Shown: positions 2,051 to 52,700 of the stretch, piece after piece
Layout of the letters: every line of letters starts with the position of its first letter
Numbering within the stretch: the stretch's first letter is position 1
NCBI GenBank assembly: GCA_044892525.1
Contig: CM097888.1
Span: 2,666,001 to 2,730,000, forward strand
Source of the DNA: Schmidtea polychroa
Lineage: Eukaryota
DNA length: 64,000 bases
Direction of reading: 5' to 3'
Notes under the pieces: generated by a model
What the model saw: only the letters and a program-made list of their open reading frames with translations
Told to the model about the DNA's origin: nothing
Databases searched by the model: none
Program-made: the position numbers and the translations under genes

Positions 2051-2830
2051 ATCATAAAACCCAACAATAAATATAATAATAATAATGATGTTGAGGCTCG
2101 TCTAGAGTGGAGCAAAAATAAATTTGAATGTGCAAATCGATAAAATACCAAAAATATAAAAATTAAAAATTGACGTATTTCCCGTATGTACGAATAGCAA
2201 ATAATGAGACGAACACAAATACAAGAACAAGATATTCGTAAAAATGGAAATTGATTAAAAATAAATAAATAATTTATTAGCTATGTAGGAAATATGAGTG
2301 GTAAATAAGAAAATAATGATATTAGGCTTCCTCTAAAATTAATAAAGATGATCAGTTTCGAATTAACGTCTGCTTAATTGTTTTGCTTTGAGGAAATTTT
2401 GGTTGCTGTCTAATTCAATTTTTTAATTGGAGAATCAAGATAAAAAGACACGACACTGGTAGCCAAGTGCCAGTTTGATCGAAAAATAAAGAAGTCACCA
2501 AGAGATTCCTACGAAAGAGAATAGAGAAAATAGTTGAAATTTGAACAAAAGGAGATCAAAGTGTAAGAAAACGAAACTCTTGTCAAATAAAATTTATAAA
2601 AGGAAAAATCATATTCAAAATTCAAAAAGGTGGTTTCTAGTTGAGTTACTTACTTTATTAATTTTTATAGAAGAGTGAAGGTAACACATGCANNNNNNNN
2701 NNNNNNNNNNNNNNNNNNNNNNNNNNNNNNNNNNNNNNNNNNNNNNNNNNNNNNNNNNNNNNNNNNNNNNNNNNNNNNNNNNNNNNNNNNNNNNNNNNNN
2801 NNNNNNNNNNNNNNNNNNNNNNNNNNNNNN

Positions 2831-3005
2831 AAAAATCCTCAAATTTGTAGAACCCTTTGCATGCAGTTCTGACCATTAAACTAATTTCTACGCAAAACGA
2901 GCGGAATTTTTCTATTGTAACAGATTTTGTTATCAAAAAAGAACGAGAATGGGAGATTCAACTTTGGACTCTTTGTGTTTCTTAAAACATTACAAAAATG
3001 ATTGA
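2831..3005 (+). mobile_element. hAT transposase C-terminal dimerisation-domain remnant
   Basis: Reads NERNFSIVTDFVIKK / RTRMGDSTLDSLCFLKHYKND* with one frameshift. ttctcgagaa subterminal-type repeats follow at about 3100-3150. Confidence 0.7.
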
Positions 3006-3283
3006 CTTTATTATATTTTTATTTTTTATTTTGTGTATAATAAAAATGTGAATTTCAGTTTATATTATAGTGCATTGAATTTTTATTTTAATAAGTTATT
3101 TTCTCAAGAAATCTCGAGAAAACAAATATGTGTTTACTTTTCTCGAGAAATTAAAAAAGGATGAGAAATGTGAAACACAAAAAATAACAATAATTCTTTT
3201 ATATCCTAGTATTTGTATTCGCACTATCAAAATTGAAAATTTTCTGTATAAAATCTAGAGCTTTGAAATATTTATTCATTCAG

Positions 3284-6200
3284 TTACTCATAAATGCAGG
3301 CGGTCAAATTGACGCAAAAGATACATTTGGTAATACACCGCTTCATTATGCAGCGGAAGATGGCGAGAATAATTTATTAACCCTTTTATTGCAAAATGGA
3401 GCTAATTCGGATTCACAGGTTTATGCTANNNNNNNNNNNNNNNNNNNNNNNNNNNNNNNNNNNNNNNNNNNNNNNNNNNNNNNNNNNNNNNNNNNNNNNN
3501 NNNNNNNNNNNNNNNNNNNNNNNNNNNNNNNNNNNNNNNNNNNNNNNNNNNNNNNNNNNNNNNNNNNNNNNNNNNNNNNNNNNNNAAAATAATTATTTAC
3601 TATTGCGATAATTTAGAGCGTATTTGTTTCTCAGTTTTTTGGAAGACTGAATGTGATTTATGTTTGCGCCATTTCTATAGCTCAGAAATTAGAGTTGTCA
3701 TGGCAAAATTTTTCTATTAATTTGTATTAGTCGGGGAACAATCAAATCCAACCTCCATGCCATAAAGCCCCAACTAAAAGCTTGTATAATTATGCATGTT
3801 TTCATTGACCTTCATGTAACATTGCCGCTTCTGCATAATTTGTCCGCACACAGCTGGATTGCAGAAATATTTTCACTTTCTATTTCTTTTTTGACGTGGA
3901 GGAATTTGAGTATTCAATTTTTCATTTCTTCGAATGTTTTCAGGTCTTGTAATCTCGAATTTTCTGTTGTTCCAATCTTCAATAGTATTTTGAATGAAAG
4001 TACTTTCATATAATTTTCCATGAAAACTATTCTTTTCGTTACTACGTTTTTTTGCTTACTTTTCGATTTTTTAAAGAAACTTCGTAATCAAATCATTCTC
4101 TATTTGATATGATAAAGGAGCATTAATATCACTTGTCAAATTTGATAGTTTTCTTTTTGAAGTGTAATTCAACATCTATTTAATCAAATTTTCGAGTCGC
4201 CTCTATTGATAATAACGCCTTGATAAATATTTCTCCATTTGAATAAGTACTAGGAATTGCCTTTTTCTTCGATAACTTTTCCCATGTCATTATCAAGGTT
4301 CAAATGTTTAAAATAAATTGAAGAATAGGCATGGCCGCCATGCCATAAGATTTAATTTTATTCATAATAACAATATTTTTTGATATTCAAAAATGTATTT
4401 CCAAATCATATTTGTATAGAATGCTAATTAAATAACAACAATAACTTTATGAACAATGTCATCATTCAATTTCAACATACCACGAATCTCCAAATATTTA
4501 TATATTTATATATACATCTTACAGCTGCTGTTTTTTAAATCTTAGTATGCTAGATATTTCAAAATGGTATTCAGTTGGGAATATATCTGGTAAATAAATG
4601 TAATGATACAGAATTTTTCATGTCAGTTTGTGTCATTATCAAGATTGAGTCGCCTTTCGTACTTTAGGAATCGTATTTGAATTATAATCAACTTTTGAAC
4701 ATATTTATGGTTATTCTTGTCTTGCTTTGATGATGTTATTGTGATCCAGGAGTTAACATGATTATCTTATATAAAACTACTTTAGTATTATTTTTCTAAG
4801 CTTCAATTTCTTCGTAATAGCTCCATTTAATGATGAAAGTAGTGTATGATGCGAATTTTTCATTACATAACACAATTCATTCAGGATATGAATTGTTTAT
4901 AACAGAGGCCCTAAATTCTTTATTTGGTTTTTATCGGGTTTTTGTTAGAAATTATCGAAATCAGTAACTATGTTATTGGACACCAGAATCGGTTCACTTC
5001 ATTGTGCCACGTTTATCAAATGTATATAAATACATTGGATATCTTACAAACTAGGCGTATAAAAAACTCATTATCCTTGTGTACAAAATAGATGCAAACT
5101 CACTCAATATTTATAATAGCATTAGGCAAAGATAATAAATTTAGTAGAATTAAATTATTTTTGTTTGAATGTTATATTTAACATGTCTGCTCGCCTCCAA
5201 ATAGGATTGATTTTCTTACTAAGTAATGACAAGAGCCAAATAATTTCGAAACTAGTTAGTCATTAGAAGTTGCATTGAATATCATGGAAAACTTTATTTC
5301 AAACAGCACCAATTCAAAAAACAAAATCGTTTGATTATAGTTTTCATAGTTTGATTCATCTTAGCATTTTAGGTTACACTATTTAGGTTATATGTTGTGT
5401 TGGGGTTCAACAAGGGAGGTACAAAAATGAGGTGAAAAATCAATATAAACACCAAATTCAATATTAATTAAAAATCCAAAAAAAATTAAAAATGACTATT
5501 TTCCGGGGAAAACTGGTATAGGTGGATGTTGTACAATGAGACAAGTTAAAAAAAAATAAAATAAAATAAATGGGGGGGTCCCTAGAAGGAATTAATTACA
5601 AAAATTAAAATTAATTAAAAATTAATTAGCTAATAGAAAACCAAAGCAGTTTGAGAGAACCCGAGTGGTCAATCAAATTGGTTAGAGGCAATTAAATCAG
5701 CTGACGAATAATTAAATTGGGGCAAGCTATCAAAAAGAAAAGAAAATTGCTCAAACTAATTAAGTAGATGAGGAAGCCTGGGGCAAATAGAATCAAAATA
5801 ATTTGAAAGGGGAAAATCAAATTAGGAGATGGGTATAAAACAACCGGCAAGTAAACAGGATTGCCAATAGGTCGAAGAAACGCAAAGGGATAATCTAGCG
5901 AGAGGAAGCAAAGGAGAATTGAACTTAGTGACAACTATATATTTTCAAATCGAGCGTACCAGAAAGGGACATCTCCCGTCAGAATATTAATCCTCGTGTA
6001 AGATTCAGATTGATATTGAAAGGTGCAGAGCAAAAGAGTTGTTTAAAGTTGTGGTTGTTTCATTTAAGAGTGTAATCAAAAGTGTAATTGTATTAGTCTC
6101 GAATAAAGATTATTGTGTTGGGTTGGTTAAGTTAATTTCAAAAAGGACATCAAGGAGTCAGACCGTGACACCACCTTGCACAAAATACACAACAGTTGGA

Positions 6201-9200
6201 ATATTTTTTATTTCCAGATATTTATTGAAAAACAATGCATCTATTTTTGTTTATTCACAAAAAAGTTACCGTATATGCTTGCGTATAAGTCGTAGTAAAA
6301 AAAGTAAAAAAAATTAAGATATTTATTGTTAAAAAATTTGACATCTTCAAAAAGTTCAGATCAATCATCAAAAAGTTCATTGTAGAACTCATCTGAAACA
6401 TCTCCAACATGGTCCTCTGTGTAATCATTACTGTATAATTAAAAAATTAATACTACAAATTATAACCAATTTAATAATTTCGTTAAAAGTTAATTTGTAC
6501 TTTTTTTGACCGTGTATAAGTCGAAGTGGCTATTTTGACTTGAAAATTTGACGTAAATTTCTCGACTTATACTCGAGTATATAAGGTAATTAAAAATTAA
6601 AACATTAAACTACATTAATATTTTATTGAATTGTTGAAAATCAATGTAAAAATCTATAAATCCATGCTTAAATAAATTATTTCAATAATTTTCATATTAA
6701 TGTTTGAAGATCATATTAACTATAGATCATATTATATTAGGTACTCGATATTTCGGCAGAGCCTTTAATGATATATTACAATAATAAACTGATAAATTGT
6801 CAGTGTAGATTCAGATCCATTGTGAATTAGAAATTCGATTTTTGGTCTTCCAGCTTCGGTTATAACATCAAATGACCAGTGTTTCATGTCACTTTGCACT
6901 GATAGTTCATCAAACTTTCTACCAAATAATCTTTTAGCATCAAATACAGTATTATTAGAATTCATTGCAACTTGATTCTGAGCCGCATCGCCGATTAAGC
7001 GTTTTTACATAACTTTAATTTCAGTAGATAAATTCCAAATCCAAGAATATCCAAAAATAAATACTGAATCTCGAATTAAAACTAAAAATGAACCAAATAA
7101 AATCCCTATCATAATCATCCCTTAGTTGTAAATTAAAAATTATCTAAAAGAAATCAGTCAGCTTTAAGTGAACTTTTACTGCTATTTATTTCCATTGCCC
7201 AAAAGATGAATTCAGAATGTATCATAAAAATCTATTTCAGTAATCGTTGAGTAGATAAGTTTCTTTATCTCTTTGCTCCAGTTTCATGCAACTCTGGAAC
7301 AATTAACACATAATTCTCCNNNNNNNNNNNNNNNNNNNNNNNNNNNNNNNNNNNNNNNNNNNNNNNNNNNNNNNNNNNNNNNNNNNNNNNNNNNNNNNNN
7401 NNNNNNNNNNNNNNNNNNNNNNNNNNNNNNNNNNNNNNNNNNNNNNNNNNNNNNNNNNNNNNNNNNNNACGACAATAATTATTATGAAGGTCTATACAGT
7501 TTACTTGACTTCTTCCGACATCCAGATTACAACTGCGTACATTTTTATACCATACGTAACGAAGTAGTAATTTATTAAAAGTTAACCATCCATATAACTC
7601 CCATAGAGATGTATCATAAGTACATTGACATGCATTCTTTCCAAGTATCTTTGTACGAGTATATTTTATCATTATCCAATTAAAAATTGTAACGACTCAA
7701 AAATTGCAAGCATATTAACGAACTTGAACATTAAATGGTTCAAAATTGTCCTAAATGTAACCAATATTATTGTCAAGGATATAACCAACAAAACCCCTCT
7801 GATGAAAGCTACCAGAAGTGGCCGCATTGGTGCAGTTAAAAGACTTCTAGTTGTCGGATGCAATGTCAATGTCAAAGATAAAAATGAAGACACTGCGCTA
7901 CACTACGCAGCTAGACAGGGTTCAGCAGATTTAATTCTAATGCTTTTAAAAGTGAGATTATTGGTTTGCATTTTACTTTCTCTGGCCTGTACTTAACGTA
8001 TTATTCCCTTCATTAACGTGTCTTTCTCACAGATTTCCCTTAATCAATATTTAGCATCAATTGTTGGGACTCTTCACAATATTCCTCTTTAATTAATGTC
8101 TTACAAATGATCTTCAATGAACTTTCAATTAATATTCACTTCTGGTTTACATATTCAAAACTTCTTCCAAATTCTTTCTTTTATTAATCCATTTCTTTTT
8201 ATAAATTCTCATTTTACTTAATCTCTTTTGATTCGTATTTCTCTATCTAAGACTTAGAGCTGATTTCTTTAATAGTTCATTAATTTTGATAACCAGCAAA
8301 TCTCTATGCTGAGATTCTGCAAGATTTTTTCCACTACAAACTGGAAAGAAACCAATGGAGTAACGTTGTTGTATGATTATGATAATATGTATGATAATGA
8401 CCATACATATTGGACTTTTCTTCTAACTAATTAATTTATCATATTCTCTTTTGGCATCTGTTCTTTTATAACTTAATTCTCACTCTACTATTCGCTATTA
8501 TTCCCCCCCCCCCTGTCAAGCCCATTTTTCATTATTTAATTCGAATAATTAATTATTGTTGATTTTCTGTAAATCCAAATTTCAGTACTTTTCCACTTAA
8601 TTACGAACTCTTCCATAATTCTGTTCTCATTCCATTTCTCCCTGCTTTCAATTCTATCTACGACCATCTCTACTACATCTCTCATTCATCTTGTTTATAT
8701 TCATTTTTATTTTAAAATTATTTTAATTTTACAATTTTAACATTTTCAATAAATTGCATTTCCCACGTTATATATTTCCATTCAGTTAAATAAAATACAA
8801 AGAAAATTTAACAGGAATCCACGACAATCCAGTAGACAATTATTTCCCGGGACAGTTAATACCGATTTTTTGAAATATTTATTTATTTATTCATTCTTTA
8901 TTTGTTAATTATTATTAATAATTATTACACATAACTGAAAGGGGTTTATTGTACAATTTGTACATGCACTCATTCAATTTACTGTTAATCATATGAAAGT
9001 CTCCAATAAATATTATTGAGATTAATGCAGGGTCGGAACCTTGTCATTGCAAAGAGCCACATGAAAAAATACCATTGTATAAACCCCATTCAATATGCAT
9101 ACAGTGTAACTTAAATAATATAACAAACAGAAAAATAAATTGCAGTTTTATTACAGTTTGACAAATAATTTACAAGTTAATTAAAATAAAATAAATCAAT

Positions 9201-10587
9201 TTAATTTAATTAAATGTTAATTAGAAAAGTAATCAATTTTCAAAAATATCTATGTTATTTATTAAAACTAAATTTGAATGGGAACATTTTTAAATGAACC
9301 AATTTCGCAAAATATTATCCAAGAGCCACATGGTGAATTTATTTCGGCAAAATACCCAAGAGCCACGTGATAAAGCTCAAAGAGCCGCAGGTTCCCGACC
9401 CCATGGATTAACGTATAAATAATATTTTATTATTAATGGCACAAGTAATAATGTCATACATAATTAAACATTAACTTTCTAGTGTAATAGATGAGCCATT
9501 TCTTAAACTGGGATTAACTGTTTCAGATCAAGTGTATGTAGCAAGTTCCATAATAATTTTATAAATATTTTATTCCATTTGATGAGGGGTATTTCAATAA
9601 ATTTAACCCTTAACGGTTGTAAATCACCTCTGACCTGACAACAATATATACAATATACAAAGATAGCGCCTGATAAGGGTTAAAATCGAAATAATGACTT
9701 CAAATTAATTTTATTTTCAATTTTATTAATATTTAGTGACTTTTAAATATTTCTTTTGTAATATTTAAATATTAAATCTAGTGATAAATGTACATAATTA
9801 CTAATTCAATATTATAACATACAAAGTTGAGTTTTGATAAAGGGATTTCTGAGCCGAAGGCTCGTTGTGGCATTTAATCATCCTCATTGCCATCACCGAT
9901 TTCTAAGGTTGTCATTCCAAATTACGTATGAATTTAAATTTCCAGTACGATGCCAGAATAGATGCTCAAAATCAGTGGGGTCTTACTCCCCTTATGGAGG
10001 CTGTGTCATACAGCCAACAATCAGTCGTTCAAATTCTTATCCGCAGCAAGTGTGATCTGTATAAGCGAGACTATAGAACAGGAGACACTGCATTGCATGT
10101 GGCTGTAAGAAAGAATTATGTTCATCTAGTTGAGATGCTTTTGAAAGCTGGCAAATGGTACATAGAATATAATTTCAATAACTTTGGAGAATCTTTCGTT
10201 CATGACGCTGTCTGGTACAATCGATGTGAACTTGTTCGTCTGTTCCTAATGCATAATTATAATTTTGATTATCCCGCAAAGAAGTTGGCATCGGGGACAG
10301 AAAAATCTCCATTTCAACTTGTTCTTGAACGGGGACATTTGGAACTTGCAAAAGTGTTGTCACGTGTTTGTTGTTATTGGAGTAAAAATTCTAACACCAT
10401 CAAACGAATCGAGTTTCAGGAACTTGAAGAGGTAAAAAGTTTGAGACAATGGTGCAGAAAAATAATCCGAAGGCAATTAGGATTTCATATTTATGAAAAG
10501 CTGCAAAAAATCAATCTGCCCCCCGCACTGATTGAATACATTCAATTGGAAGATATCAAATGGGGCCCGAAAATTTCGGTCAAGTGA
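3284..10587 (+). CDS. Ankyrin repeat and SOCS box protein (ASB family), 5' end not found
   Basis: Exons 3284-3418, 7778-7951 and 9946-10587, all phase 0 with AG/GT sites. The joins restore ankyrin repeats (GANSDSQ|[11 protein letters not shown]; LMLLK|[19 protein letters not shown]). C-terminal SOCS box [17 protein letters not shown]...[11 protein letters not shown]. Confidence 0.92.
5560..6010 (-). mobile_element. LTR retrotransposon gag-like remnant in ASB intron
   Basis: Minus frame [16 protein letters not shown] resembles the start of a Ty3/gypsy gag. Shares the gagaacccgag block with about 1460. Confidence 0.4.
6834..7004 (-). pseudogene. hsp70: HSP70 N-terminal ATPase-domain fragment, intronless, antisense in ASB intron
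   Basis: [57 protein letters not shown] matches cytosolic HSP70. Preceded by an in-frame stop and followed by unrelated sequence. Confidence 0.9.
9028..9405. mobile_element. hAT (Charlie/Buster-type) MITE
   Basis: TIRs cagggtcggaacc / ggttcccgaccccatg. 8-bp TSD gattaatg / gattaacg with central TA. Internal agagccac repeats. Confidence 0.8.
9607..9679. mobile_element. Tiny piggyBac-type MITE candidate
   Basis: TTAA on both sides (9603-9606, 9680-9683). Ends ccctta...taaggg. Confidence 0.45.
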
Positions 10588-27939: not shown

Positions 27940-30900
27940 TCACAGAATTGCAATGGGATGTTCCCTAGTCGGAGGATTTAGGCTAGGTATTGATGCTGTC
28001 GCTTCCTTAATTACACCAAGTGTACTGTTGAAGGTTTGTTTGATGACAGTGTCTGCAATTTTCTCCGATAGCTGCAAATATTACCCGTCAAATATAACCA
28101 ATTATCACCAACTAATGCAAATTTCATAAACAGTAAACAAACTATAACTGGAAACGCAAATAATAACTATTTAATAACTTCGATAATTTGTTTAAAATAA
28201 GATCTCTATTGCCCAGATAGCACTTTGCTCCTAGAGTGATGTTGAATTCACATCTTTCGGCACAACTTGTTCCCCTGGGTTTGATCTTAATGTGTTCAAT
28301 GTTCAATATTTCTAGCAATACTTCTTTAATTGATGATATAAATAAATATGAAACAGAAGAAATATAAGTGTGAAGGGCTAAGAGTTAAAAATCAACTCGA
28401 GAATCAGGTAATTTATCTAGGCATTTTATCAACAGTTAAAATTATCTATTTATATAATTCCCTTGATATGCATATCAAACTTTACATATTTTCCAATTAA
28501 CTTCCAATTAAGCTACTAATCATTGTAAGTAATGTATTTAGATTAAAATTTTATGAATTCAATATTCCTATGTCAATCAAGAGTACAAAGATGAAATACG
28601 CCCGTTTGTATAGAATAAAAACTTCTTTAATACCGGTTGGTGTGTACGCCAACTTTGTGATTCATCATTTTTGTTATTTTGACATTTTACATTTTAGAAT
28701 CCATTTTCTAAAAATGATTGGTAAGTAGGTAAAAAGTAACTTTTAAGGTTTGAATTTCGATTTTATATAGATATGAGATCAGCGCTATGCTGTAACTTTT
28801 GGGGACCCTATACAGACACTAAGATATCTTTTTTTATTGATTTTAATTAAAAAATACTACAAGAAATTATAAAGCGATTTTTCGAGCTCTTGCTGGTAAA
28901 TTCATCAATTATATCATTGTAATCAATCGCTCTGGCTGTTGCATTTTCATTCGACAGTATTGCTAATCCAAAAAGTCTTTCCTGTGACATTGTAGACCGA
29001 AGATAATTTTCAATTAATTTTAGTTTTGAAAACGATCGTTTTTGAGAATTTTCATTGATGGTATTTTCTTTCAATTCCTGATATTTTCTTGCTATTGGAG
29101 AAATTTTTCTAAAGTATTTAATATTTGGGACGCAGTGCGATATCGATAGTACGGCACTATATGAGATTATTATTCAAGCTCATAAATATTCAATATTTAT
29201 ATTAGAATTTATTTTTAAATACTTTTTTTAGCAATTTTATAAATTTCTGTTTATAATTTTGGATTAATTTCGATTTAATGTAAATTAGATCAATTTTAAA
29301 TTATANNNNNNNNNNNNNNNNNNNNNNNNNNNNNNNNNNNNNNNNNNNNNNNNNNNNNNNNNNNNNNNNNNNNNNNNNNNNNNNNNNNNNNNNNNNNNNN
29401 NNNNNNNNNNNNNNNNNNNNNNNNNNNNNNNNNNNNNNGTTGCATGCGTTTTTTCTATCGCGCCTGTGTGCGCGGTCTGGTTAGACCAATTCTGGTTGGT
29501 GTGCGCACACAGACGCGAGCAATGGAAATTCGATTGAATTTTGTAAGTAGAAATGATTTTGTAGAAATTAGATGGAATTTTTGAGTTTTGTGAATTCTGG
29601 AACTTTTTGTTTTGAAACCGGAGGTTGGAAATAATTGAATGGATCCAGATTGGGACTATTTCGTCAAATCCGCTGATGACTATTATGCTGAAAATTGTGA
29701 TACAATGACATTGCGCATATGGGATACGGCAGATCAAGCAAGATTTGGAACTATAACCTCGTCTTATTACAGAGGAGCTCATGAAATTATTGTTGTGGTT
29801 GATGTTACCGATCAAGATTCGTTTAACAATGTTAAAAATTGGCTTAATGAAATCGATAGATATGCAAAAGGAAAAGTTCCCGATAAAATGATTGAGACGA
29901 GTTCAGCTACGAGATTGTTTAATATTACTGAAAGTACTGGAGGTGTTATGACTGGTATGATCCCTGATTGTCGATCGCAAGTTTATCGTGCACAAATGGA
30001 AGCAGCTCGATTAAAATCTGACATTGGACATGACATTGAAATGGACAAACTGGTATTAGTCAAAACTGATCCACGCGGCCCTGTAGAGGCGGAAAATAAA
30101 ATTGTTCTTGGACTTATTCAATTATTATTATTATTATTATTTTATTATATTGAGACAATTTTTTTTGCAGTAGTAAATTGCGAATTTTTTCCTGGGAAGC
30201 ATACAAATGTGATTCAACAAAATTCAATAAAGTATTTGTTTGCCACCATCTTTTTGAATATTATATTATTTTTTTACTGAATTTTTGGAGATTCCCAATA
30301 ACATTCCAAAATTATAGCCAACATTTATGGAACTGTCGAAGGTTCTAGTTCAGTTACTTCAGAAATGTTTGAAATATTATAACAATATTAAATCAATTGC
30401 AATTAAAAGAACAAATCATACGTTATGTAAAAAGGCAAAGTTTAAATATTTTTCAAAATCATAAAAAATAAAATAATTTCAAATTTTAAAAATTCATTTA
30501 AATTTTTTAAAAATTCAATAAATATTTTATTATGTAAAATTAAATTAATTAAAATTTATTTTTGTTAAATAAACATTTTTAAAGAATTTTAATTTTTTAT
30601 GTTAATAAAACTTAATGAAATGGAAAAAAAATTTGTAAATATTTAAAATCAAATTTTAAAAATTCGTTTAAATATTTTCAAAAGAAACAAAAATTTAAAA
30701 AAATATTTTAAAAATTAAAACCAAACATAAAAAAATTTTTAATTTAAAAAAATAATTTTATAATCTTATTTAAAAAAATTAAAACAAAGCATAAAATATA
30801 TTTTCAAATAAAATAATTTCGCTATAATATTTATAAAATTAAAACAAAATAGATAAAATAATTAATTAAATATTTTAAAAATAAAAAAACCTCAAAACAT

Positions 30901-33900
30901 TTTCAAAAAATTAAAAAAATTTGCCAAAAAAATTGTAAAATTAAAACAAAATAGATAAAAATTATTTTGCAATGTTATAAAAAGTAAAATATTTTTAAAT
31001 TTAAAATTTGAAAAATTCATCTAAAGATTTTTTAATTTTAAAAATCGAAATAATATTTAGAAAATTAAAACAAAACACAAAATATATTTCCGAATTTTAA
31101 AGGTTTGCCAAAATAATTATAAAATTAAAACAAAACGGATATTAAAAAGTATTAAAAATATTTCCATCCATAAAGAGATATATTTGCTTTTTGATAAATC
31201 TTACGAAAATATCTCTTCATTTTCTCGACAACTCAAAGTATAGTTCAAAAAATTTTCCTTGGATATTTTCCCGAATTAATTTCCCTTTACTCGTCCAGTA
31301 TCAATATTGTATAATATGTAAATTATTAAATTAATTAACTTGAATATTATTTATTGAAATATTGATTTATAGTTTGAAATGAAAATATTGGAAATTGATA
31401 ATATAATATATAATTAATAAATCCATTATATTTGCCCGAATGGTTGGAATTTAATATAAATATCATATAGTAATGTCAATATAAATTACCTCATATTGAC
31501 CCGGGCCGGGAGTTTCCTCGATGGCGTCATTGAATCGCTTTTCTCGGAAATAGAATTTCCCAGTTTTCGTATTTAAGTAGGTTTTGTGGTCATAACTTGC
31601 TGGTCCTGCATCGAAACGTGAGATAATTAATAGGCAGTCTTGCCAACTCTACCTGGCAAACTTGGATCCACACAATCCAAAGGAGAACCTTTTGCATATC
31701 GACTGGCATTAGAAAGGAAACTGCAATGTCTTCTTTTAGCATCTTTAGTTCTTGGTTCCGTGTAATGTTTCTTGCCTTGAGACTTCTTGAATGCGCTTAT
31801 TACATCATATTGCGTTGCGTCAGGCAAATCCTATGTGCAAGCAAATTTTTTATTTTTCCCTGGAGTACATTTCAATCAGTCTTACGAATTTCCCTTGAAT
31901 AACAGGATCATAATCGCGATTGGTCAGAGAAGCAAACATGGATGACATAGGTTGATAGAGTTTAGATGCGTTAGCTAATTGTTTGGGTTGATAATGAGAG
32001 GGTCCAGGAATATCATTTGCGTTTCTATTTCCCAGATCTACGTCTCTTATACTAGTTGAACCAAAACCACCTTTTTTTGTCATTGATATATAGCTGGGCT
32101 TCTCTCTTGTTGCTTCTGAGACGTTGTAAACTTGTGGGCCTAAGGTTTATGAAAATAAAATAGACAGTTGCGGTTTATTAGAAACACTCAAATTATTATA
32201 TATTGATAAGCCAGTGAGATTTCCATGAAATTGTGCTATGAAACATTTTTTCTTTATCGTTAATACTATGTAAATAATCCACATGGAAAATTTTAAATTT
32301 TAATTTTAATCGATTAAATGACATTTTTTAATGAAATTAACCAATTAAATTATCAGATATTAATCATTGAAATTATCAATGAAATTATGAATTTAAATAT
32401 CAATTCAAATATCAGTTAAAATATCAATTAAAATATCAATTAAAATATCCATTAAAATATCAATGAAATTATCAATGAATTAATCGATGAAACTAATCAA
32501 TGAAATCAATGAAATTGTCAGTGCAATTATCAATGAAATTGTCACTTAAAATATCAAGTAAAATATCAATTAAAATATAGTTAAAATATCAATTAAAATA
32601 TCAATGAAATTATCAATGAATTAATCGATGAAATTAATCAATGAAATTATGTGCAATTATCAATGAAATTGTCACTTAAAATATCAAGTAAAATATCAAT
32701 AAAAATATCAATAAAAATATCAATAAAAATATAATTCAAATATCAATTCAAATATCAATTAAAATGTCAATGAAATTATCAATGAATTAATCGATGAAAT
32801 TAATCAATGAAATTATCAGTGCAATTATTAATGAAATTGTCACTTAAAATATCAATAAAAATATCAATTCAAATATCAATTCAAATATCAATTAAAATAT
32901 CAATTAAAATATCAATGAAATCAATGAATTAATGAAATTATTATCAATTAATTTATTGATCCACTATCATGTGAAATGAAATCAAGATAAAGGATAGAAT
33001 TAAATCGACGGCATGTAGCTGATAATATCCAGTTGAACATGATCATTAAACAAGCAAATCATAGGAAATACCTGGAATATCAATGTCCACCTTCTCTGTA
33101 AATCGAGTTGCAGTCAGTCCAAACGGACTGCGCTTCATTCCAGTTACTTTTTTCAGTGAATTAAGAGCCGTTCGGGGATCATTATAACTTCCTGGGCCGG
33201 GAATATCATCAAACTGGCTGCGGAATCTCTTAAATAGATATAGAAACTAGCATAGGGTAACCAATCAATCACTTGGGCTTGAACCCCGAATGGGGGGTGT
33301 TCAATCTTTTCACCTTCTTCATTGAAAATCGGCTTTGGACATTCGATGAGTCCCGAATGCATGTAGGATGCTGGTCCGGGAATGTGCTACAATATGACAC
33401 TTTCAAAATGGAGTTTTGTTATCTACCGCAAAATTACATCTTTTATAGCTTTTCTTTGTAGGTCATCGATAAATCTTGGAATGCGCAATTGGGCAAATTT
33501 TCCGCTTTCCCGGCTCTGGTAGTACTCTGTCATATCTGTCCAGCGATCTGAGAACGGATCATATTGCCCCGGCCCTGGGCCCTTTGAGCCACTGAAATCA
33601 GTCCGCCGAGCTCTCTATACTCGAGTTATTAATCATGGCCCATGATAAAACAGTTTCTACATCATAACTCCAGAAGCATCCTTTGTATTTATCTGTTATT
33701 GCGTTTTCTCCAATTTTCGGAATGTAAAACGCTGGACCAAGACTAATATCTCGCTGTGGAGGGCCTTGTTTAATTAACTTCCCATGTGGTCCTTCTTCAT
33801 ATCCAAACGCAGTTTGTGCATTTGGAATGCTAGGTGGCATCTCTTCTCTTTTGTAAATGATTTTGTTTTTATCCAGAATTTTCTTTTTCAATACGTACAT

Positions 33901-42573: not shown

Positions 42574-45500
42574 ATGTCATACAACAATAATTTTAGTTAT
42601 TTTAATGGTTGGATTTTCTTTGATTTTAGTTATGTTTATATATAATTTTAAAAGCTCCAACATCCAATAATGATTGGTGGGGTTCTAAGGATACAAAGAA
42701 ACCAAGCACTTTTGATGAAAGTCGAGTGGTCAAAATTGGTGACTATTTTGAAATACTTAACTTGTTGAAATTGTTTATTCTTATTTAGATTACAACAATC
42801 AACCATATGCTCAAAATTATTTGCAAAACTATGCAAGTATGATTTTACCCAGTGAAAACCGGACCACCGAACCAGTTCATCCTCGACACGAAGTACTTCA
42901 AGGCACAGTAACCCAATTATTTGCTTCCTTTGGATACATCAATGACAACATTATTTTTTCCAAAACGTAATTATATTATTCCTAAAATACATTACTGCTG
43001 ATATTTATAATTTAACCACCAGTTCATATATTCTTTGATTTCTTTATTTTACTGCAAGTTTATGAAAACTGTATTTAGTGCGCTATGAAAAGATATTGCT
43101 ATTAATGAAATAAGATAAAATTGCAGTTTGAAATATTTGAATTAAAGCTGAAATGGCCAAAATTTAATGTTTTTTATTATTTTGAAAAACAATTTCTGGC
43201 AAAAACTATTAAAACACAATTCTGTGATTGTTTACGTTTAAAAACTTGTTAAAATTAAAATATAAACCTATGAAATCGAACAATTGAGAGCTATTTATAA
43301 GATAAAATGGCTTTGATGGAAAACAATAATTAGTTTACAAAAATTATAATTATAAAATAAGTCAATAAATCTATTATATAAATTTTTATTGATTTACAAT
43401 ACAATGGATATTTTGAATTTTTGAATTATATATTTTATAGGTTTTGTATTATGCGGATCTTAATATTTTATCAGATTCGTTACTAAGATTAAAATAATGT
43501 TTTGTGATTCGAAACTATGGGTAAACTGAACTATACCCCCCATATAGTAAGAGTTTATCCGACAAGATATTCTGTCCGCCCTATTGGTGCGGCTCACAAG
43601 GGTAATGGTCGCAAGGGTACCGCTTTGTTGTGGTTGTTGATGATTTGTGGTTCCGAAATTGTTTTGCCCGTGGATCCCAGGTGCAAAATTACAAATGAAT
43701 AATGGAAAAATGTCAAATTTAACTTTGATGTCTCAAATGGTAAATGGTAACGTAAAAATAAAATATAAATAAAACTTTTAAAAGTAGTTATTTAAAATTA
43801 TAACTTTTGTTTCAAAATACAAAAAAATAAATGAAGTTGATTGGATGTGATAAGTGGATTTATGTCCGGCTCAATGTTTGTGATGAGGATCAAACGGCAC
43901 GCTCTACCAAAGAGGAAGACGGGAAAGCAATCAACAGCTTATGTACAATAACTCATAATGCTGGATATAAAATAGGTAAAGTACTATTTCCTGGTGACGG
44001 AGTAAAGCCATATTTCTTATATTCAACACTGTATTGTCTGCATCTATTTTTCAGCTCCCTCATACTGTTATNNNNNNNNNNNNNNNNNNNNNNNNNNNNN
44101 NNNNNNNNNNNNNNNNNNNNNNNNNNNNNNNNNNNNNNNNNNNNNNNNNNNNNNNNNNNNNNNNNNNNNNNNNNNNNNNNNNNNNNNNNNNNNNNNNNNN
44201 NNNNNNNNNNNNTTTTTTGCTGTTGACAAAAAAATCATGTTAATTCATATCGGTAGTGATTCCCCGTATTTCGATGCATATATAATGTTTTCTATAGTTT
44301 TAATGTTTATATTAATGTAAATATGTAAATTAGTCGTTGAATAAAGACTTATTATATTTGCTATTTTCTAATATCTTGAACCTAACCTCATAATTACATA
44401 TAAAATCGGGTTCACAGTTCGCATTATTTCGGTTTGCGGGTTGTTTAGTGGAACGTATTTTTTAAATTTTATATTAAACCTTGCGTTGTTCAGGGACCCC
44501 AAAATCAAATTTAATTTCCCACGGGCCGCCCGAATGATCCCGGGATCCGTAAGGACCATTTTGGGAACCACTGGTTAAGCTATGCTATAATATAAATCTG
44601 CAATGGTCATGGCATAGATTATTGAATGGTGGTGTAAATATTAACAGTTTGGAATTATTAACATTCTAAGGAGTCTATGATGCTTTTGTCTTCCGAGTCA
44701 AGTAAATATAAAATTATCAAATTACTATCAAATCAAAATAACATTAATAAAAATAAATAATTTATTGAATTATTCCCTTTGCCATCTGTATACTTTTTCA
44801 ACTCAATTTCCCACGTAGAATTAATTCCCTGAGGTATTTTATAGACCTTGTAAAATCAATAAAACCCTTCAATTCTAGCTAGATGAGAGATTTTCTAAAA
44901 ATATAATTAAGATTCTAAAGGGTAAAATAATCTCCATTTTGGCAAGATTATGCGGAAATATTTCATAAATGGTTTTCGATAATCGATTTTCATTGGTTTA
45001 TATTGATAAATTGAGTGCTAATTTTGTCCAACAACTTCAATCTATTCATTATTAAATAAAATATTTTAATTTCCTTATTTATTGTTATAAATCAACCAGC
45101 AAATATCATTAAGCGCTTTATCAACAGAATCATCATGATCATTATCATAGTTATATTGTCTAGGGATGTGTCCGGTCCAATGGTGAAGGTTGGTGATAGA
45201 GTAGCAGTCGATGCAACATACCAACCTAACAATCCTACCAAATACAAAGGGGAAAGAGTTTGTAAAATCGACGATTCAAGATTTAGTTCAACGACAAACA
45301 GCTTATCTAAAATGAAACCGCTTTCTAGAGATTTATCCTCAAGAATTGATATTCCTTTGACATATCGCTCAGATTCTGGGAAATCCGACAAGAAATCCGA
45401 ATCGAAACCCGAATCGAAACCTGAATCGAAACCTGATAAAATTGCTAACAAGAAAATTAAATCTCGGAGGTAATTTAAAATAATTAATTCATTTTGACCA

Positions 45501-46754
45501 ATAAAATAAAAGTTAGAACATTCAATCCTTAATAATAAATTGCTGCTATATTAATATAAATCATTGTGATTGTGCCTGTCGGAAACGACAAATTGATGTA
45601 TTTATTGAACAAATCCTCAGTTATAAACATTTATCATCTAGATCTAGTGAACCAAAAGGAAGAAAGAAATTTGAACCGAAAAAGCAAGGAAAAATAAATT
45701 CTGGTGCCGGAGTGCATTCACCAATCGATCTCACAAATTCAGAAAAATCCGGATCTGTGAAAGGTCCATCGCCAGTATCATTGAAGCGTAAAACAAGAAG
45801 TTCATCAAAAAATCACAAAACTAGCAGCACCAAGACGACAGCTCCCGAAACCTCCGAAAAGACAATAGCAAAAATTAGCGTGGAAAAGTTACCAAAACCA
45901 ATGGAAAGCTTTTCATTGCGTGAATTGGACTGTGCAGCCTTGAAGTTTAGGTGCAAGAATCTCAATCCGCCAAATCAATTCTTTCACGTCTCATTGAAAT
46001 ATCAACAGGCGTTTCCACTTAATCATCCAATGAAATTAGGAAATGCTTGTCACTTTAAAGTAGGCTAAATGTGGTGGTTAATATATCTATCTCAAATGTC
46101 CTCTCTTTGAACGTTGCTAGGTGTTGGATAGAAAGGTGAAGAGTATTGATAATTTCATCAACGAGCAGCTAAATCGTGACATCGACCCGGAAGATGCCGA
46201 TACGACATTTTCAGCAAAAGTTATGCTGCTGTCCACAGCCGAATTGTCAGAATTCTACAAACAAACATTGATCCTAGCAGAAGAGTTTGACAGCAACAAT
46301 AAAATTCCCATTACCAAGGCAATCAAGTTCCTCGTGGGTAACACTGGTCCCAACAAGGAGTTTGCATTTGGTGGTGCGTGGTCTCCGTCACTAGATGGCG
46401 TTGATCCAGATACGAATCCTCGGGTTTTGATCAACACTGCCATCCGCACCTGCAAGAATTTGACTGGGATCGATTTATCTGGATGCTCGTCATGGTGAGT
46501 TGGATTCTTGGATATGCTCAGTGTGCTGCTGTGTTGTTAATCGATATTATTATTATTTATTATTATTATTATTATTATTATTGTTATTGTTGATATGATT
46601 AATTACACCCGAATAGCACCCCAGCGCACTCATGGAATATCGATTATCCATCGCCTTGTTGATCCGACTGACCAAATTCAGCAAAATCATTATGATATAA
46701 ATCAAGCGGACCTCCTGATATCTATCTGTATTTGTAGATATTCAGTTCCAATAC

Positions 46755-46792
<38 letters not shown>

Positions 46793-49700
46793 ATACATAT
46801 TGATACATACACTAATACTCACTGATACTCATAGCGGCATTATTACATAATCAACAGCTAACACCAATTTACCGGTTAAATGGGATCTGCAGAATTTCAC
46901 CAGCACTTTCCGCGTTCCTGAAGAACAGCCTTGCAGTTCCATTCAGTATAAATGCTTCAAACGAAATTTATTGTCCAGCCTTGTATCGTAATGAGGTTCC
47001 TCGGATTTCTGGCCAAACTTTCATGTTTTTGGGAACGGTTTGCAATTGGAGAATGAACTCGATTCTAATCAGTAGCGGCAGCAGCGGCAGCAGCGGCAGC
47101 AGCAGCAGCCACTAATACCATGGAAACCCCAATATTGGAATTGCCATAATAATTATTACAATATAAAAATGATTGCTCATCTAATGTTGTGTATGAATTG
47201 ATATATAATTACAATGCTTTATTTGACATGCAATAAATCAATTGGGGTTATTTTTCCAGGCCAAAATTCCTTGAAATCCATTACTATAGGCCATTACAGA
47301 AAATTCAAAGGAAAACTAATTGCCAAGATACCTCAAAAAGTGACAACAAAATGGAAACGGAATCCGAGGAACGATTTGAATACATAGAACCAAGAATGGA
47401 AACAGTTGTGTACTATGTGCCGGATATTTGGAATTGTGTCCCGTCACAAGATAGCTGGAACGATATTAAAAGAATGTACCAAGGACAATTGACAAGCCTG
47501 ATGTGCCCTCCTCCAAGCGTCCCGGGACCAGTAAAACCAGCCGCTACGACCAGCAACAGGACTGCAAACATGGATGAAGCTCCCACATCCAAGAAATCAA
47601 CCAATGATACTCAAGAAGAGGAGGACTATAACTTTAATGAAAACGAGGAAATTGATGAAAAGTCCAAAGATTCTGTAATTGATATTTAATAGAAATAGGA
47701 TTTGATTTGATTTAATGAAGATATTTTACTCCACCGCTTTGATGACATTAATGCCTTGATAGATGTATTGATTTAGGAACCCATTCTCGCCACAGATGAG
47801 GTACCAACGCATTTTGGCAGTTTGAACGTTGATGGAATGAAGGTGAATGGATATATCCGTTGATTACAACATGAATTTATGGTTACATTTGCAATAGATC
47901 ATAGAAATTAAGCGGGAACTGGAATTGCGCAAACTTTCTGCTAAAGGCGTTATGGAACAGCTGAAAGCTAGATTGAAAAGTGCTCTTGAGAAAGAAGAAA
48001 TGGAAGAAAAAATGAAAGGTAAACTTAGATCAAATTACATTGGCCAATTATTGATTTTTTCATAAATTCTGAATGCTATTATTAATTAATATAATCTTCG
48101 GATCAATATTATATTTGAATCAATATAATAATTTCTGAATCAATATGCTATTCTAAAAAGGCGCCCAAATGAAAACCGCATAATTCGAGGCTAAGAATCC
48201 ATACAAAAAGGGTTAGGGGGTTTGGTACATCAGATATTGATATTTATCATATTAACAAGCTCACCATTTCACCATTATTTGTAAATAAAATTATTTCATT
48301 CTATTCTAACTTTGTTAAAGAAATAATTACTCTTGAATAGAAAAATTGCAAAAAATGATTATAATGTTGTGCAATAAAACTTGTGCAAGCCGATAATACA
48401 GTTATGCATAGAATTCATTCAATTTTTATCACTTATAAGAATTTATAAATTATTTTTATATTCTTAATCTGTAATCTTTTCATCGTGCTCGCGTTTCTGG
48501 GAGATAACCAATCATTAGTTTCTCTAGGTGTTATTATGACCCTTTCTGCACTGGAGCAGGCGCAGTTCTGTGACATATAAAATTTGTTATTAATGATTGC
48601 TTTTTAGAGAGATCTGGATGATTTCTGTTTTCAAAACACGGTTCCATACATTATTGTAATCGGCACTGAAATTTTAGCCCTTTAAATATCTGCATCATTG
48701 TCTTTAAATAAACGTTGTAGTTGATTGGAAATAGCTATTCCTTCTGATAAAACTTTTGATGTAAAAGATGGCGTTGTTTTGGATTCGTCATTCTTATCAC
48801 CTAATTCTTGATTTGCACTAATTAAAATATGAATAAGATCTTCATTTAGGTTATGATCATAATTTATAAATTCTTGAATATCAGTGAAAGTTATTTAATC
48901 AAATCAATCTCCTCCAATAGAATCTACGACATGGCATAGGTCAACTAGAACCTCTGTTACTTCATTTAATATATCGACTCCGACTGGCGTTGGCTTATTC
49001 CAAGAGCGCTTGATTGTAGATTGCGTAAATGATATAATAGAATTTGCTATAAACAACGTTAACAGCATACAAATTTACCATAAAATTTAAAATTAACATA
49101 ATTTCAATTTATCATGTGGTTTAACATTTTATTTCCCCACCAATCGAATATTTAACTCTCAAATAACATTTGAAGTGTTTTTGTTAGTACCCCATGATTC
49201 CATTTTTTCAGATCCGACATCAACTGTCAAAACTGTGACAGAAGCGAAGTCCATTTCAGATCTTGTGTTGTCAGAAGCGGAAAAAAAAGAATTGAAACAA
49301 CTGTATAGCTTACCCGATGATCCACATATCATTGTGCATCACAATAACAAGCACCAAGATGGTAAAATAAGGATAAAAACGATGTCGCTACATGTAAATA
49401 TCTATTTAAACATCTCACTGGTGTCTAATGACCATTTCTAGTCGTTATTGAGCTATTATGATGTGAAATTCGATGAAACAACATTCGAGGTTGCGTTGTT
49501 TGCTAGGCAATTTTTGGAGATGTTGCGCAGGGATGCTGTGTTTAATGTTTACAAGTCATTGGTTGTAACTCCAGAGTCGGATTTGGTGTCCAAGGAAGAG
49601 TATGTCCATCAATAATTTATATTTACCCATTATTTCTAATCGATTTTCTTACTTTTCCTCCCTTCACAGTTAGGGCTTACAAAACCGGGTTTTCGGTAAA

Positions 49701-52700
49701 ATTGTCCAAAATTGAAATTAAATAAATTTTATTCAACTATAATTGATGGTTTGAGCCCCATTAAAGTAACAGCGGAGAGCTTATGCTCTCAGAATCAGGA
49801 ATTATATCGAGCAGATATTGCTTTGCAGTTAAACTATTTAAACAAAACAACTCATTTAGTACAGATCTGAAGATAGTTCTATTGAAGCGACGTTTTAAAT
49901 ATGCTGATCATAAAGTAGATATAAATACAAACAATTATTATTTATTCATTAAACCACCACAGAATAATTTAGTATGACAAATTTATGAACTTTTTCAGAG
50001 ATATATAGTTTATGGATACTTAGAAACCATTCTACCAACAAGTGTTGAGTCGGAACGATCATTTTCTTCAGCCTCACATTTAGTAACAAAAGTACGATCA
50101 CCTTTATCTAATCAATCGATAAACCATTTATGCTTAATCCGAGCATTTTATAATAATAAAAATAAGACATAATTTGTTTTTAATTATATTTTTTAATAAA
50201 TTACATGAATTTGGAGGCCAAAAATGATACTGTGTAGTAATTATCCATTACTAGCTTGTGATTACTTGTGAAACTCACTAACCCATATTTAAACTAAACT
50301 CGATGTAATATCGCCTTGAATAGTCATTGTTTTGCTCTACGATGTTGCTAGGACCACACAAATAAAACAGATAAAGAGTTTTAATGATATTGTAATACAG
50401 ATTTATAAAATCCGCCGAAATTTCTTTGATTGTAAATTTGTAATGAATATTTATTGGATAAACACACTATTGAAATGGAACATTCTAAATCATTATTGAT
50501 GAAGTATTTCAACCGAAAGTTGATTGGTCTATATTAGTTGCTGATTTCAAAGCTTCGGTGAAGGAGTAAATGGAAAACTAACAATAAATCTTGGGAATCT
50601 CTGTAAAAGTTAAATTTTAGTCAAATTTAAAGAATAGAGGCTTTTAGTGCCTTAACTTAAGTGTGCTTTCCAAAACATCTAAGTACAACTCATGGAGTTA
50701 CATTAGCACGTTAAGATTCCAGAAAATCCTAATTTTTGTTGATATTTTTTCACATAAATTCATACAATCAAGAGCGGATTTTAACCTTTTTACTTCACCG
50801 ATTCATTTGGCAGTGCAAACCGCTTTTACTAACTGTCACATCCCAAAATTCATTTCCCCATTTTAGGAATTCCGCTAAAAAGCCCAAACTTATGGTGACA
50901 ACATCAAAAAGAACTATCAACCGGCCTTTACTTTTCTCATGTACAATTTTGGATCGAGAGAGGACAAATAATATTTCACTTGATGATTTGAAAGGGTTGA
51001 TTGAAGGTTTGGGCATTTGTCTGTCATCAGATCAGGTAACAAAATTTGAAATTGTTATTGGTTATTATCGGTGGAATTAACAGCTTTCGGCATTAATTAA
51101 TAAAGTGAAAGAAAGCTCAAAATGCCTGAATTACAGGTTGCTCACGGATAAAGAAATAGATGACAACGATATGTCGAAAATGCTGATTATTGACCAGACT
51201 GATGATTTGGATTATATTCGTGAATTGGCAATGGGCAATAAGGCGTTATTTGATGATGGAATCGCTATTGACTCTTCGTAATTTGATTATAATTGGCTGA
51301 TTGTTGTCCTATCTGATGTGTATATTCTATACTAGTGTCGACATGGAGGAAATTGACAGGCTGAAGAATGAGTTGGATAAATCAGAGAGGTGTCGGCAAA
51401 CATTGGAATTGAGATTTGCGGAAATCAGAGAAGAAGCCGGTAATAAATATTTGATGGAGTATCCTGTTACAATCACTCATTGGTTTTTGTTCAGGGAAGA
51501 ACACGCAGCTGATACAATCACAATTGAAAGAAATTCAAAAGTGTAAAGAACAAATTTCTGAATATCGGACAAAGTATCACCATGAGCAAGATCGTGGAGA
51601 TTTTTACAAGAAAGACTTTGATAAGATTTATAGAGACCTGAAGGAAATTGATAAGTTATCAACTGGGCTTGGGAAATATGTAATTGAATCAGTAGAACGA
51701 TTTAAGAAAATAGACAAACCAGCAGAAAAGGGCGATAAGACTGAGAAATCTGTTGAGAAAACGCTTGCGAAATCTGAATCTAAGCCACTGTCCACCATTA
51801 AACCGAAACCGAAAGAACCGAAACCATCAAATAATAAATCAAAATCTACTGTCAATCACGCTGTAACAGAGAAATCAGAAGAACCCACACAGCAAATTCC
51901 GAATTTACCAGTCACCCCTTCACAAATCGTTGATGAGCTGCCATTGGATGTTGAAATGAACGATGTCACCATAGAAACTACAGAAACTAATGAGGACAAA
52001 GAAGAAATGGTTAAAATTGATTTATTGCTATCATGGCTAATAATATCGTACATTTAAGGAAATACACAATGAGGAGAAATCCGAGAAATATCCCGAAGGT
52101 CAAAAGGAGGTTGGTTATATATTTATTGTTTTCTTGGTTTCATTCGTTACTCTTGAACTATATTTTTATGTTTATAATAGCGTTCCGTTTTTTTATTGAT
52201 TGTGGACATATATCATTCATTATTGATGATTGATTATGATTTGATATTCATTATTGATGATTGGTTGTGATTTGGTATTCATTATTGATGATTGGTTATC
52301 ATTTGGTGTTCATTATTGATGATTGGTTATCATTTGGTATTCATTATTGATGATTGGTTGTGATTTGATATTCATTATTGATGATTGGTTATCATTTGGT
52401 ATTCATTATTGATGATTGGTTATCATTTGGTATTCATTATTGATGATTGGTTATCATTTGGTATTCATTATTGATGATTGGTTATCATTTGGTATTCATT
52501 ATTGATGATTGGTTATCATTTGGTATTCATTATTGATGATTGGTTATCATTTGGTATTCATTATTGATGATTGGTTATCATTTGGTATTCATTATTGATG
52601 ATTGGTTATCATTTGGTATTCATTATTGATGATTGGTTGTGATTTGATATTCATTATTGATGATTGGTTATCATTTGGTATTCATTATTGATGATTGGTT

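What the first reader, a model, noticed from the sequence alone, without database searches (positions are those of the whole stretch)
29639..30280. In-frame Rab1-PSMA6 mosaic ORF with functional motifs excised
Seen: an uninterrupted 213-codon ORF with an ATG at the Rab1-like start. Compared with remembered Rab1 and PSMA6 sequences, it skips the P-loop (GDSGVGKS) and switch I (STIGVDF) and changes DTAGQ to DTADQ. It switches at about 29866 into proteasome alpha-6, then skips again to the KxDP.G segment, ending in a hydrophobic tail partly formed by (tta)n. Four recognisable junctions all keep frame (naively 1 in 81 if random). It has no introns and lies antisense in STPG2 intron 9. Inference: template-switching retroposition or element-mediated capture of abundant mRNAs; possibly an expressed chimeric gene or a source of antisense/small RNA.
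Basis: partly seen in the sequence, partly recalled or inferred. Interest (0 to 1): 0.7.

Follow-up and report, generated by a model that had tools for sequence, protein, structure and literature searches.

The report
Solo LTR carrying Rab1-proteasome gene patchwork
This is not a new gene but the leftover end-repeat of a very abundant flatworm jumping gene whose end-repeats carry in-frame patchworks of spliced host gene pieces, likely translated as a disposable front end that host enzymes would cut off at a captured ubiquitin to free the element's coat protein.

Summary
The ORF is real, but it is a solo LTR of a BEL/Pao retrotransposon family (at least 1,141 LTRs; 124 carry this exact Rab1/PSMA6 junction). 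Both pieces are spliced copies of host mRNAs, whose parent genes I found. The hydrophobic tail is flanking intron DNA, not element.

In full elements the LTR ORF runs without a stop through the tRNA-Met primer site into ubiquitin and Gag (or Gag-Pol). Sister LTRs carry other host patchworks (DUSP, LIM, cofilin, MsrB, ClpP). Inherited changes in the Rab1/PSMA6 cargo avoid stops and keep frame, but amino acids drift (omega 0.7-0.95, against about 0.2-0.35 in ubiquitin, Gag and protease). That explains the in-frame junctions and lost motifs. A distant relative from another data set (36% Gag identity) has the same layout with a DnaJ piece.

Translation, cleavage and expression were not shown. The scan found this family before on other DNA of this genome; the selection tests and the distant relative are my own checks.

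The parts
29439..30120 (+). Solo LTR of a BEL/Pao family. Its 5' terminus is not readable in the window; family copies begin TG and end CA and are about 0.9 kb long.
   Evidence: no primer site follows it, host flank does
29459..29518 (+). Long hairpin near the LTR 5' end, shared by Pol-less and Pol-bearing elements
   Evidence: z -3.2, 1 of 200 shuffles as stable
29613..29638 (+). Captured Rab1 5' UTR piece in front of the ATG
29639..29866 (+). Spliced Rab1 mRNA piece (codons 1-110) with two 51-nt deletions, at about 29667 (P-loop) and about 29693 (switch I)
   Evidence: parent at G000:C2 about 3.000 Mb (L075)
29867..30086 (+). Spliced PSMA6 mRNA piece from codon 52, with a 108-nt deletion at about 30035 (5-nt microhomology)
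   Evidence: parent at G000:C1 about 117.275 Mb (L105)
30095..30100 (+). AATAAA, the predicted poly(A) signal of the LTR, 26 nt before its end
   Evidence: AATAAA starts 35 nt before the end in 26 of 30 elements; background 0.05 per 40 nt
30121..30280 (+). Flanking (TAT)n target site and intron DNA that happens to extend the ORF by 53 hydrophobic codons; not part of the element
28078..31490 (-). Last intron (approximate limits) of the STPG2-like host gene that holds the LTR in antisense
   Evidence: the terminal exon match is weak

Best explanation
The ORF is the cargo of a solo LTR from a BEL/Pao retrotransposon family whose LTRs hold in-frame patchworks of spliced host mRNAs, and in full elements that cargo is likely translated as a disposable leader that host deubiquitinases would cut from Gag at a captured ubiquitin. 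Shown: LTR anatomy, mRNA origin of the cargo, one stop-free frame from LTR through the tRNA-Met primer site into ubiquitin and Gag, selection against stops but not against amino-acid change in the cargo, purifying selection on ubiquitin, Gag and protease, and Gly-Gly at the ubiquitin/Gag boundary. Inferred: transcription starts near the LTR 5' end, so the cargo lies in a long R region; translation starts at the cargo ATG; reverse transcriptase swaps cargo by jumping to co-packaged mRNAs or sister elements while copying R; only swaps that keep frame still make Gag and spread; the splice-donor motif 40 nt past the LTR would block the 5' poly(A) site. The window copy is an inferred recombinant of two subfamilies, left behind as a solo LTR, with no sign of a role of its own.
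For: Copy numbers: 1,141 exact LTR starts, 124 junctions, 94 LTR-end/primer sites; reversed-pattern controls 0. 5-bp target duplications validate 33 LTR ends and a primer site 8 more, of 105 copies tried. The primer site complements 18 nt of host tRNA-Met(CAT). In 30 of the 94 elements, the LTR is open for 100 or more codons up to its end in the ubiquitin frame in 22, and in 0 and 0 in the other two frames; 17 of 30 are open from primer site into ubiquitin. One 2,189-codon frame holds LTR cargo, ubiquitin, DUF1759 Gag, RT, Peptidase_A17 and DUF5641; a 1,395-codon frame holds DSPc, two ubiquitins and Gag. Junction-to-LTR-end distance is in phase in 33 of 41 copies and 13 of 21 distinct lengths (p 0.007); ATG-to-end in 12 of 17 distinct lengths (p 0.002). 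Indels shared by 3 or more copies are in frame in 9 of 11. Stops: 1 shared against 18 private (Fisher p 0.007). Cargo omega for shared changes 0.95 and 0.72; ubiquitin 0.24, Gag 0.23-0.35, protease 0.17. Eight host Pfam families in 13 of 20 cargo ORFs scanned. P0242, from another data set, starts with a DNAJA1-like piece (E 6e-5), then the same primer-site peptide, ubiquitin and Gag-Pol.
Against: No start site, ribosome or peptide data. Methionines occur in the linker and at the second ubiquitin, so Gag could also start downstream. Linker length keeps frame in only 9 of 16 copies and 4 of 11 distinct lengths, no better than chance by length. Two shared PSMA6 indels are out of frame, and 17 of 39 private indels are in frame too. 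Only 17 of 29 copies are open from ATG to LTR end. PSMA6 cargo omega of 0.72 leaves room for weak protein constraint, though shared and private ratios do not differ (p 0.24). The omega tests use different references and thresholds for cargo and Gag. The P-loop and switch-I deletions show no microhomology above background. The window copy's left target duplication could not be read.
Confidence: 0.72

Rival explanations
1. The cargo matters as RNA camouflage: pieces of essential host mRNAs make small-RNA silencing of the element costly for the host, and frame keeping is only the price of carrying them upstream of Gag. This can hold together with the best explanation and would explain why capture is so frequent.
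For: The cargo comes from housekeeping genes, sits in the part of the element present twice per copy, and turns over fast. Camouflage by captured genes is proposed for maize elements (PMC13317346, passages).
Against: Abundant mRNAs are also the ones most often co-packaged, so no selection is needed. The cargo drifts away from the parents at the nucleotide level. No small-RNA data were seen.
Confidence: 0.3
2. The released leader-ubiquitin proteins act as decoys or dominant negatives against host trafficking or proteasome assembly, or are conjugated to host proteins through their free Gly-Gly end.
For: Some copies keep a nearly whole Rab1 half with P-loop and switch I. Some DSPc-type cargo keeps its catalytic motif. 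Ubiquitin is under purifying selection.
Against: Functional motifs are lost stepwise (ATG-to-junction lengths 318, 267, 216 nt in 22, 18 and 21 copies). Cargo omega is near 1. Unrelated cargoes replace one another freely.
Confidence: 0.12
3. The window copy has been domesticated as an expressed chimeric membrane-protein gene or as an antisense regulator of the STPG2-like gene.
For: It is open from ATG to a stop, with a hydrophobic tail. It is the only one of 106 sampled Rab1/PSMA6 copies with the 108-nt deletion.
Against: 37 replacement against 12 silent changes, the neutral ratio. 17 of 29 sister copies are equally open. The predicted poly(A) signal lies before the tail. None of the best 120 of 2,454 protein hits covers more than 46% of the query.
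Confidence: 0.04
4. Assembly artefact.
For: No listed contig piece spans the LTR/flank boundary at 30120, where the tool skips repeats.
Against: The junction occurs at 124 places on several chromosomes. A contig from a second study's probable DNA run spans the 108-nt deletion with 1 difference (X5).
Confidence: 0.01

Closest known systems
BEL/Pao LTR retrotransposons (de la Chaux and Wagner 2011, PMC3118150; passages read)
   Same: DUF1759 Gag, protease motif, RT, Peptidase_A17 and DUF5641 in one frame; paired LTRs, tRNA primer site, polypurine tract, 5-bp target duplication. That paper reports BEL/Pao (Flow) families from a planarian.
   Different: The frame starts inside the LTR with exchangeable host mRNA cargo, and ubiquitin precedes Gag. 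The word ubiquitin does not occur in that paper's main text. The carriers of this cargo lack RT.
LTR-mediated retrocopies in animals (Tan et al. 2016, PMC5131818; passages read)
   Same: Partial spliced mRNAs, several parents in one chimera, template switches, further rounds of copying.
   Different: There the retrocopy replaces part of the internal ORF between the LTRs. Here it lies inside the LTR, upstream of the primer site, in frame with a Gag that stays under purifying selection.
Bs1 of maize (via review PMC13317346, passages; also in PMC5131818)
   Same: Pieces of three host genes in one chimeric ORF of an LTR element, reported as transcribed and translated.
   Different: One fixed internal chimera in a plant element. 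No swappable LTR cassette or ubiquitin spacer is described in the passages seen.
Cassandra elements with 5S rRNA inside LTRs (bioRxiv 10.1101/2023.07.14.548913; search listing only)
   Same: Host-derived sequence carried inside the LTR.
   Different: One conserved non-coding RNA that supplies a promoter, against many protein-coding pieces kept in frame.
Burro/GYPSM1 giant Gypsy elements of planarians (PMC6431247; passages read)
   Same: Flatworm LTR elements with host-like and ubiquitin-like domains in the polyprotein.
   Different: Gypsy superfamily, with fixed domains after Gag; not LTR-borne or exchangeable.
Yeast Ty1 (Gag starting in the 5' LTR) and pestivirus ubiquitin insertions (both recalled, not from any call)
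   Same: A primer site inside the Gag frame; captured ubiquitin used as a host-cleaved processing signal.
   Different: Neither carries a swappable host-gene leader of about 200 codons.

Membership tests
LTR retrotransposon (solo LTR) | TG...CA direct repeats flanking an internal region | tested here: met
   Paired LTRs 97.1-99.9% identical in 9 of 10 elements, 70.9% in one; the window copy ends in CA at 30120
LTR retrotransposon (solo LTR) | Target-site duplication | tested here: met
   5-bp duplications at 33 of 105 sister copies tried; not readable for the window copy itself
LTR retrotransposon (solo LTR) | tRNA primer site and polypurine tract | tested here: met
   18-nt complement of host tRNA-Met(CAT); purine tract before the 3' LTR in 10 of 10 elements
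BEL/Pao | DUF1759 Gag and Pao-type Pol (RT, Peptidase_A17, DUF5641) | tested here: met
   6 of 7 long elements have RT and RNase H motifs
BEL/Pao | RT present in the elements that carry the Rab1/PSMA6-type LTR | tested here: not met
   0 of 13 short (about 5 kb) elements have an RT motif; their Gag is 35-36% identical to the Pol-bearing type. They are non-autonomous members.
BEL/Pao | Placement in a named BEL/Pao superfamily by RT phylogeny | not tested
   No reference elements held
LTR-mediated retrocopy | Intron loss relative to the parent gene | tested here: met
   Rab1 introns 1, 2 and 4 and PSMA6 introns 1 and 2 are removed exactly in family copies
LTR-mediated retrocopy | Microhomology at switch points | tested here: inconclusive
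   5 nt at the 108-nt deletion (20 of 595 background positions reach this); a shared 4-mer at the Rab1/PSMA6 switch; 3 and 2 nt at the Rab1 deletions, which is background level
LTR-mediated retrocopy | Retrocopy internal, replacing element ORFs between the LTRs | tested here: not met
   The cargo is inside both LTRs and Gag is retained
Functional chimeric retrogene | Purifying selection on the protein | tested here: not met
   37 replacement and 12 silent changes against the parents
Functional chimeric retrogene | Locus-specific expression | tested here: inconclusive
   Only contigs of guessed library type, matching sister copies
Ubiquitin-fusion processing | Gly-Gly at the ubiquitin C-terminus directly before the released protein | tested here: met
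   Exact motif at the second ubiquitin in 11 of 13 short elements, 4 of 4 long elements, and both distant relatives
Ubiquitin-fusion processing | Cleavage by host deubiquitinases | not testable with these tools
   Needs protein data

The most novel reading that the evidence does not exclude
A lineage of BEL/Pao elements, wider than this one species, uses its LTR as a translated, exchangeable cassette for host mRNA pieces. A captured ubiquitin uncouples the cassette from Gag, so the element can sample host genes freely and use them as camouflage against small-RNA silencing. The result is a standing, frame-filtered exon-shuffling library of more than a thousand chimeric ORFs per genome.
Probability: 0.35. 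Interest if true: 0.82.

Novelty: new variant of a known kind. Interest (0 to 1): 0.62.

Why it matters
It gives a simple, testable rule for why gene-capturing elements can hold in-frame chimeras with no protein function: selection acts on reaching Gag, and ubiquitin removes the cost of the junk leader. It shows a route to mass exon shuffling, with more than 1,100 LTRs carrying promoter-proximal chimeric ORFs. It also warns that such solo LTRs will be annotated as Rab, proteasome or phosphatase paralogues and may be hit by RNAi against the parent genes. The window copy itself is an ordinary solo LTR.

Tried and rejected
DNA transposon or Helitron carrier: rejected; no inverted ends were found, while LTR pairs, primer site and purine tract were.
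Junctions at exon boundaries: rejected. Breakpoints (Rab1 about 29/80, 106/157, 330; PSMA6 154, about 320/430) do not match exon joins (Rab1 14, 87, 135, 279, 411; PSMA6 73, 314), although the 108-nt deletion starts within 6 nt of the join at 314.
My first idea of a spliced leader-to-ubiquitin mRNA (note): rejected; the candidate acceptor gave a short out-of-frame product in 15 of the 16 elements where one was found, while the unspliced frame is the open one. Whether any element RNA is spliced there remains open.
The loose LTR-end finder gave false ends; only its ATG-to-junction lengths are used, and ends come.
A degenerate pattern for the PSMA6 N-terminus found nothing; the gene was found by its C-terminus.
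Runs: no RNA holder listed. Contigs of a run guessed to be RNA cover family junctions but match sister copies; this is not evidence on expression.
No earlier scan note matched by sequence.
Literature: 7 searches answered; no listing described this layout, and one search returned 0 papers. Repbase entries and most subscription journals are not searched, and no supplements were opened; either could hold a description.
No fold was run: half-domains under neutral drift would give an uninformative model.

Full report
Observation. The 213-codon ORF is present at 29639-30280. It matches Rab1 over residues 21-81 and proteasome alpha-6 over 77-139. None of the best 120 of 2,454 protein hits covers more than 46% of it. 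It lies antisense in the last intron of a SHIPPO-repeat gene, with weak support for the terminal exon. The captured PSMA6 is closest to flatworm PSMA6, so the host is probably a flatworm.

It is a repeat. A DNA search of the own genome gave 2,001 candidates, of which 40 were scored, giving 101 matches. Copies begin TG, end CA, are about 0.9 kb long and are flanked by 5-bp duplications or followed by a primer site. Exact patterns give 1,141 LTR starts, 124 Rab1/PSMA6 junctions and 94 LTR-end/primer sites, with controls at 0. The primer site complements 18 nt of a host tRNA-Met(CAT). The window copy ends at 30120 and is followed by (TAT)n, so it is a solo LTR and the last 53 codons are flank.

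Origin of the cargo. The parent Rab1 (L075, five introns) and PSMA6 (L105) genes were found. Family copies lack their introns exactly, so mRNA was captured. Among 106 distinct chimera copies collected, ATG-to-junction lengths form a series of 318, 267 and 216 nt (22, 18 and 21 of the 75 with an ATG). Some copies keep the P-loop and switch I. The 108-nt PSMA6 deletion occurs at 40 places, mostly behind other cargo (18 of 20 examined lack the Rab1 junction), and in only the window copy among the 106. I infer that the window copy is a recombinant of two subfamilies. Breakpoints do not match exon joins. Microhomology is clear only for the 108-nt deletion.

The carrier. Elements with this LTR type are about 5 kb and encode two ubiquitins, DUF1759 Gag with zinc knuckles and a protease motif, but no RT (0 of 13). 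A 7.7-kb type with the same primer site and hairpin has one ubiquitin and BEL/Pao Pol (6 of 7 long elements); its Gag is 35-36% identical to the short type. LTR pairs are 97-99.9% identical in 9 of 10 short elements and at least 99.4% in the six long ones, so the family is young. Sister LTRs carry other patchworks: Pfam finds Ras, Proteasome, LIM, DSPc, SelR, CLP_protease, Myotub-related and Cofilin_ADF in 13 of 20 cargo ORFs scanned, chosen from 38 clusters plus two others.

Why the frame is kept. In 30 of the 94 elements, the LTR is open for 100 or more codons up to its end in one frame in 22, and in 0 and 0 in the other frames. That frame continues through the primer site into ubiquitin in 17 of 30. 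Four of the 30 are near-identical array copies, as are two others, so the independent count is lower. Pfam shows single frames from cargo to Gag or Gag-Pol. For Rab1/PSMA6 copies with validated ends (41 of 105), the junction-to-end distance is in phase in 33 copies and 13 of 21 distinct lengths (p 0.007). Indels shared by three or more copies are in frame in 9 of 11, two-copy ones in 4 of 8 and private ones in 17 of 39. Real stops number 1 shared, 2 two-copy and 18 private (p 0.007).

The protein is not kept. Shared changes give omega 0.95 (Rab1) and 0.72 (PSMA6); private ones 1.17 and 0.94. The window copy has 37 replacement and 12 silent changes. A similar count on 12 elements against one copy gives 0.24 for ubiquitin, 0.23-0.35 for Gag, 0.17 for protease and 1.14 for the tail. 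The references and thresholds differ between the two tests. Against my reading, linker length is no better than chance by distinct lengths (4 of 11), and downstream methionines exist.

Mechanism. AATAAA starts 35 nt before the LTR end in 26 of 30 elements, and a donor-like AAG/GTA sits 40 nt after it in 27 of 30. I infer a long R region that holds the cargo and is copied first in reverse transcription, where template jumps can swap it. I infer that the donor motif suppresses the 5' poly(A) site, by analogy to U1-mediated suppression in foamy viruses (PMC3694450, abstract read; there the donor lies upstream of the signal). Gly-Gly ends the last ubiquitin in both element types and both distant relatives. 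Cleavage of ubiquitin fusions by deubiquitinases is established knowledge, recalled; here it is untested.

Spread. Of 28 Gag relatives found, the two best carry ubiquitin. P0242 begins with a DNAJA1-like piece (E 6e-5), followed by the same primer-site peptide, ubiquitin and Gag-Pol. Its DNA was not seen, so its LTR location is inferred. It suggests that the layout is older than this family.

Reads. A contig of a probable DNA run from a second study spans the 108-nt deletion with one difference. The contigs cannot show expression of this locus.

Comparison. Capture by LTR elements is known (PMC5131818 and PMC13317346, passages), but there the retrocopy is internal. Cassandra carries 5S RNA in LTRs (listing only). 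Burro has fixed ubiquitin-like domains (PMC6431247, passages). Seven answered searches showed no description of an LTR-borne, swappable coding leader before ubiquitin-Gag; Repbase and supplements were not seen. Earlier notes of this scan describe the same family on other DNA. I recorded my reading before seeing them and do not count them as support.

Verdict. Observation confirmed; first reading partly supported. The locus is an ordinary solo LTR, but of an unusual family: new variant of a known kind, interest 0.62.

Noticed in passing
L055-L069 (e.g. G000:C2:59445976, C3:141536612): Many dispersed, decayed copies of a PSMA4-like N-terminal piece without this family's LTR start or primer site; probably a second gene-carrying repeat.
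   Followed up: no
G000:C1 about 79.32-79.39 Mb (L277-L280): Tandem array of tRNA-Met(CAT) genes with a 454-bp period; 1,238 pattern matches genome-wide. This is the primer tRNA of the family.
   Followed up: partly
L183: One element whose two LTRs are only 70.9% identical; a recombinant or a cargo swap.
   Followed up: partly
L195:491-1105: A DEAD-box helicase-like piece downstream of the primer site, so capture also occurs in the linker (weak hit).
   Followed up: no
L145, L156, L259, L267: Internal tandem repeats of a 25-codon PSMA6 piece inside cargo, again in frame.
   Followed up: no
many loci: Insertions often sit in (TAA)n/(ATT)n microsatellites; many target duplications read ATTAT or ATAAT. 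Not tested against background.
   Followed up: no
window 28847-29173 (-) and 58793-59119 (-): Fragments that look like hAT transposase (recalled motif; no Pfam hit).
   Followed up: partly
L106 (G000:C3:79.62 Mb); L087 (G000:C1:5.19 Mb): A broken PSMA6 duplicate, and a second intron-bearing Rab1 paralogue that is not the donor (76% against 88% DNA identity).
   Followed up: partly
window 90-10587 (+) and about 43800-52100 (+): Ankyrin-SOCS box gene and a DBC1/CCAR1-like gene.
   Followed up: no
G000:C1 15.5-16.1 Mb: Segmental array with a period of about 58 kb that repeats several family elements; these copies are not independent insertions.
   Followed up: no
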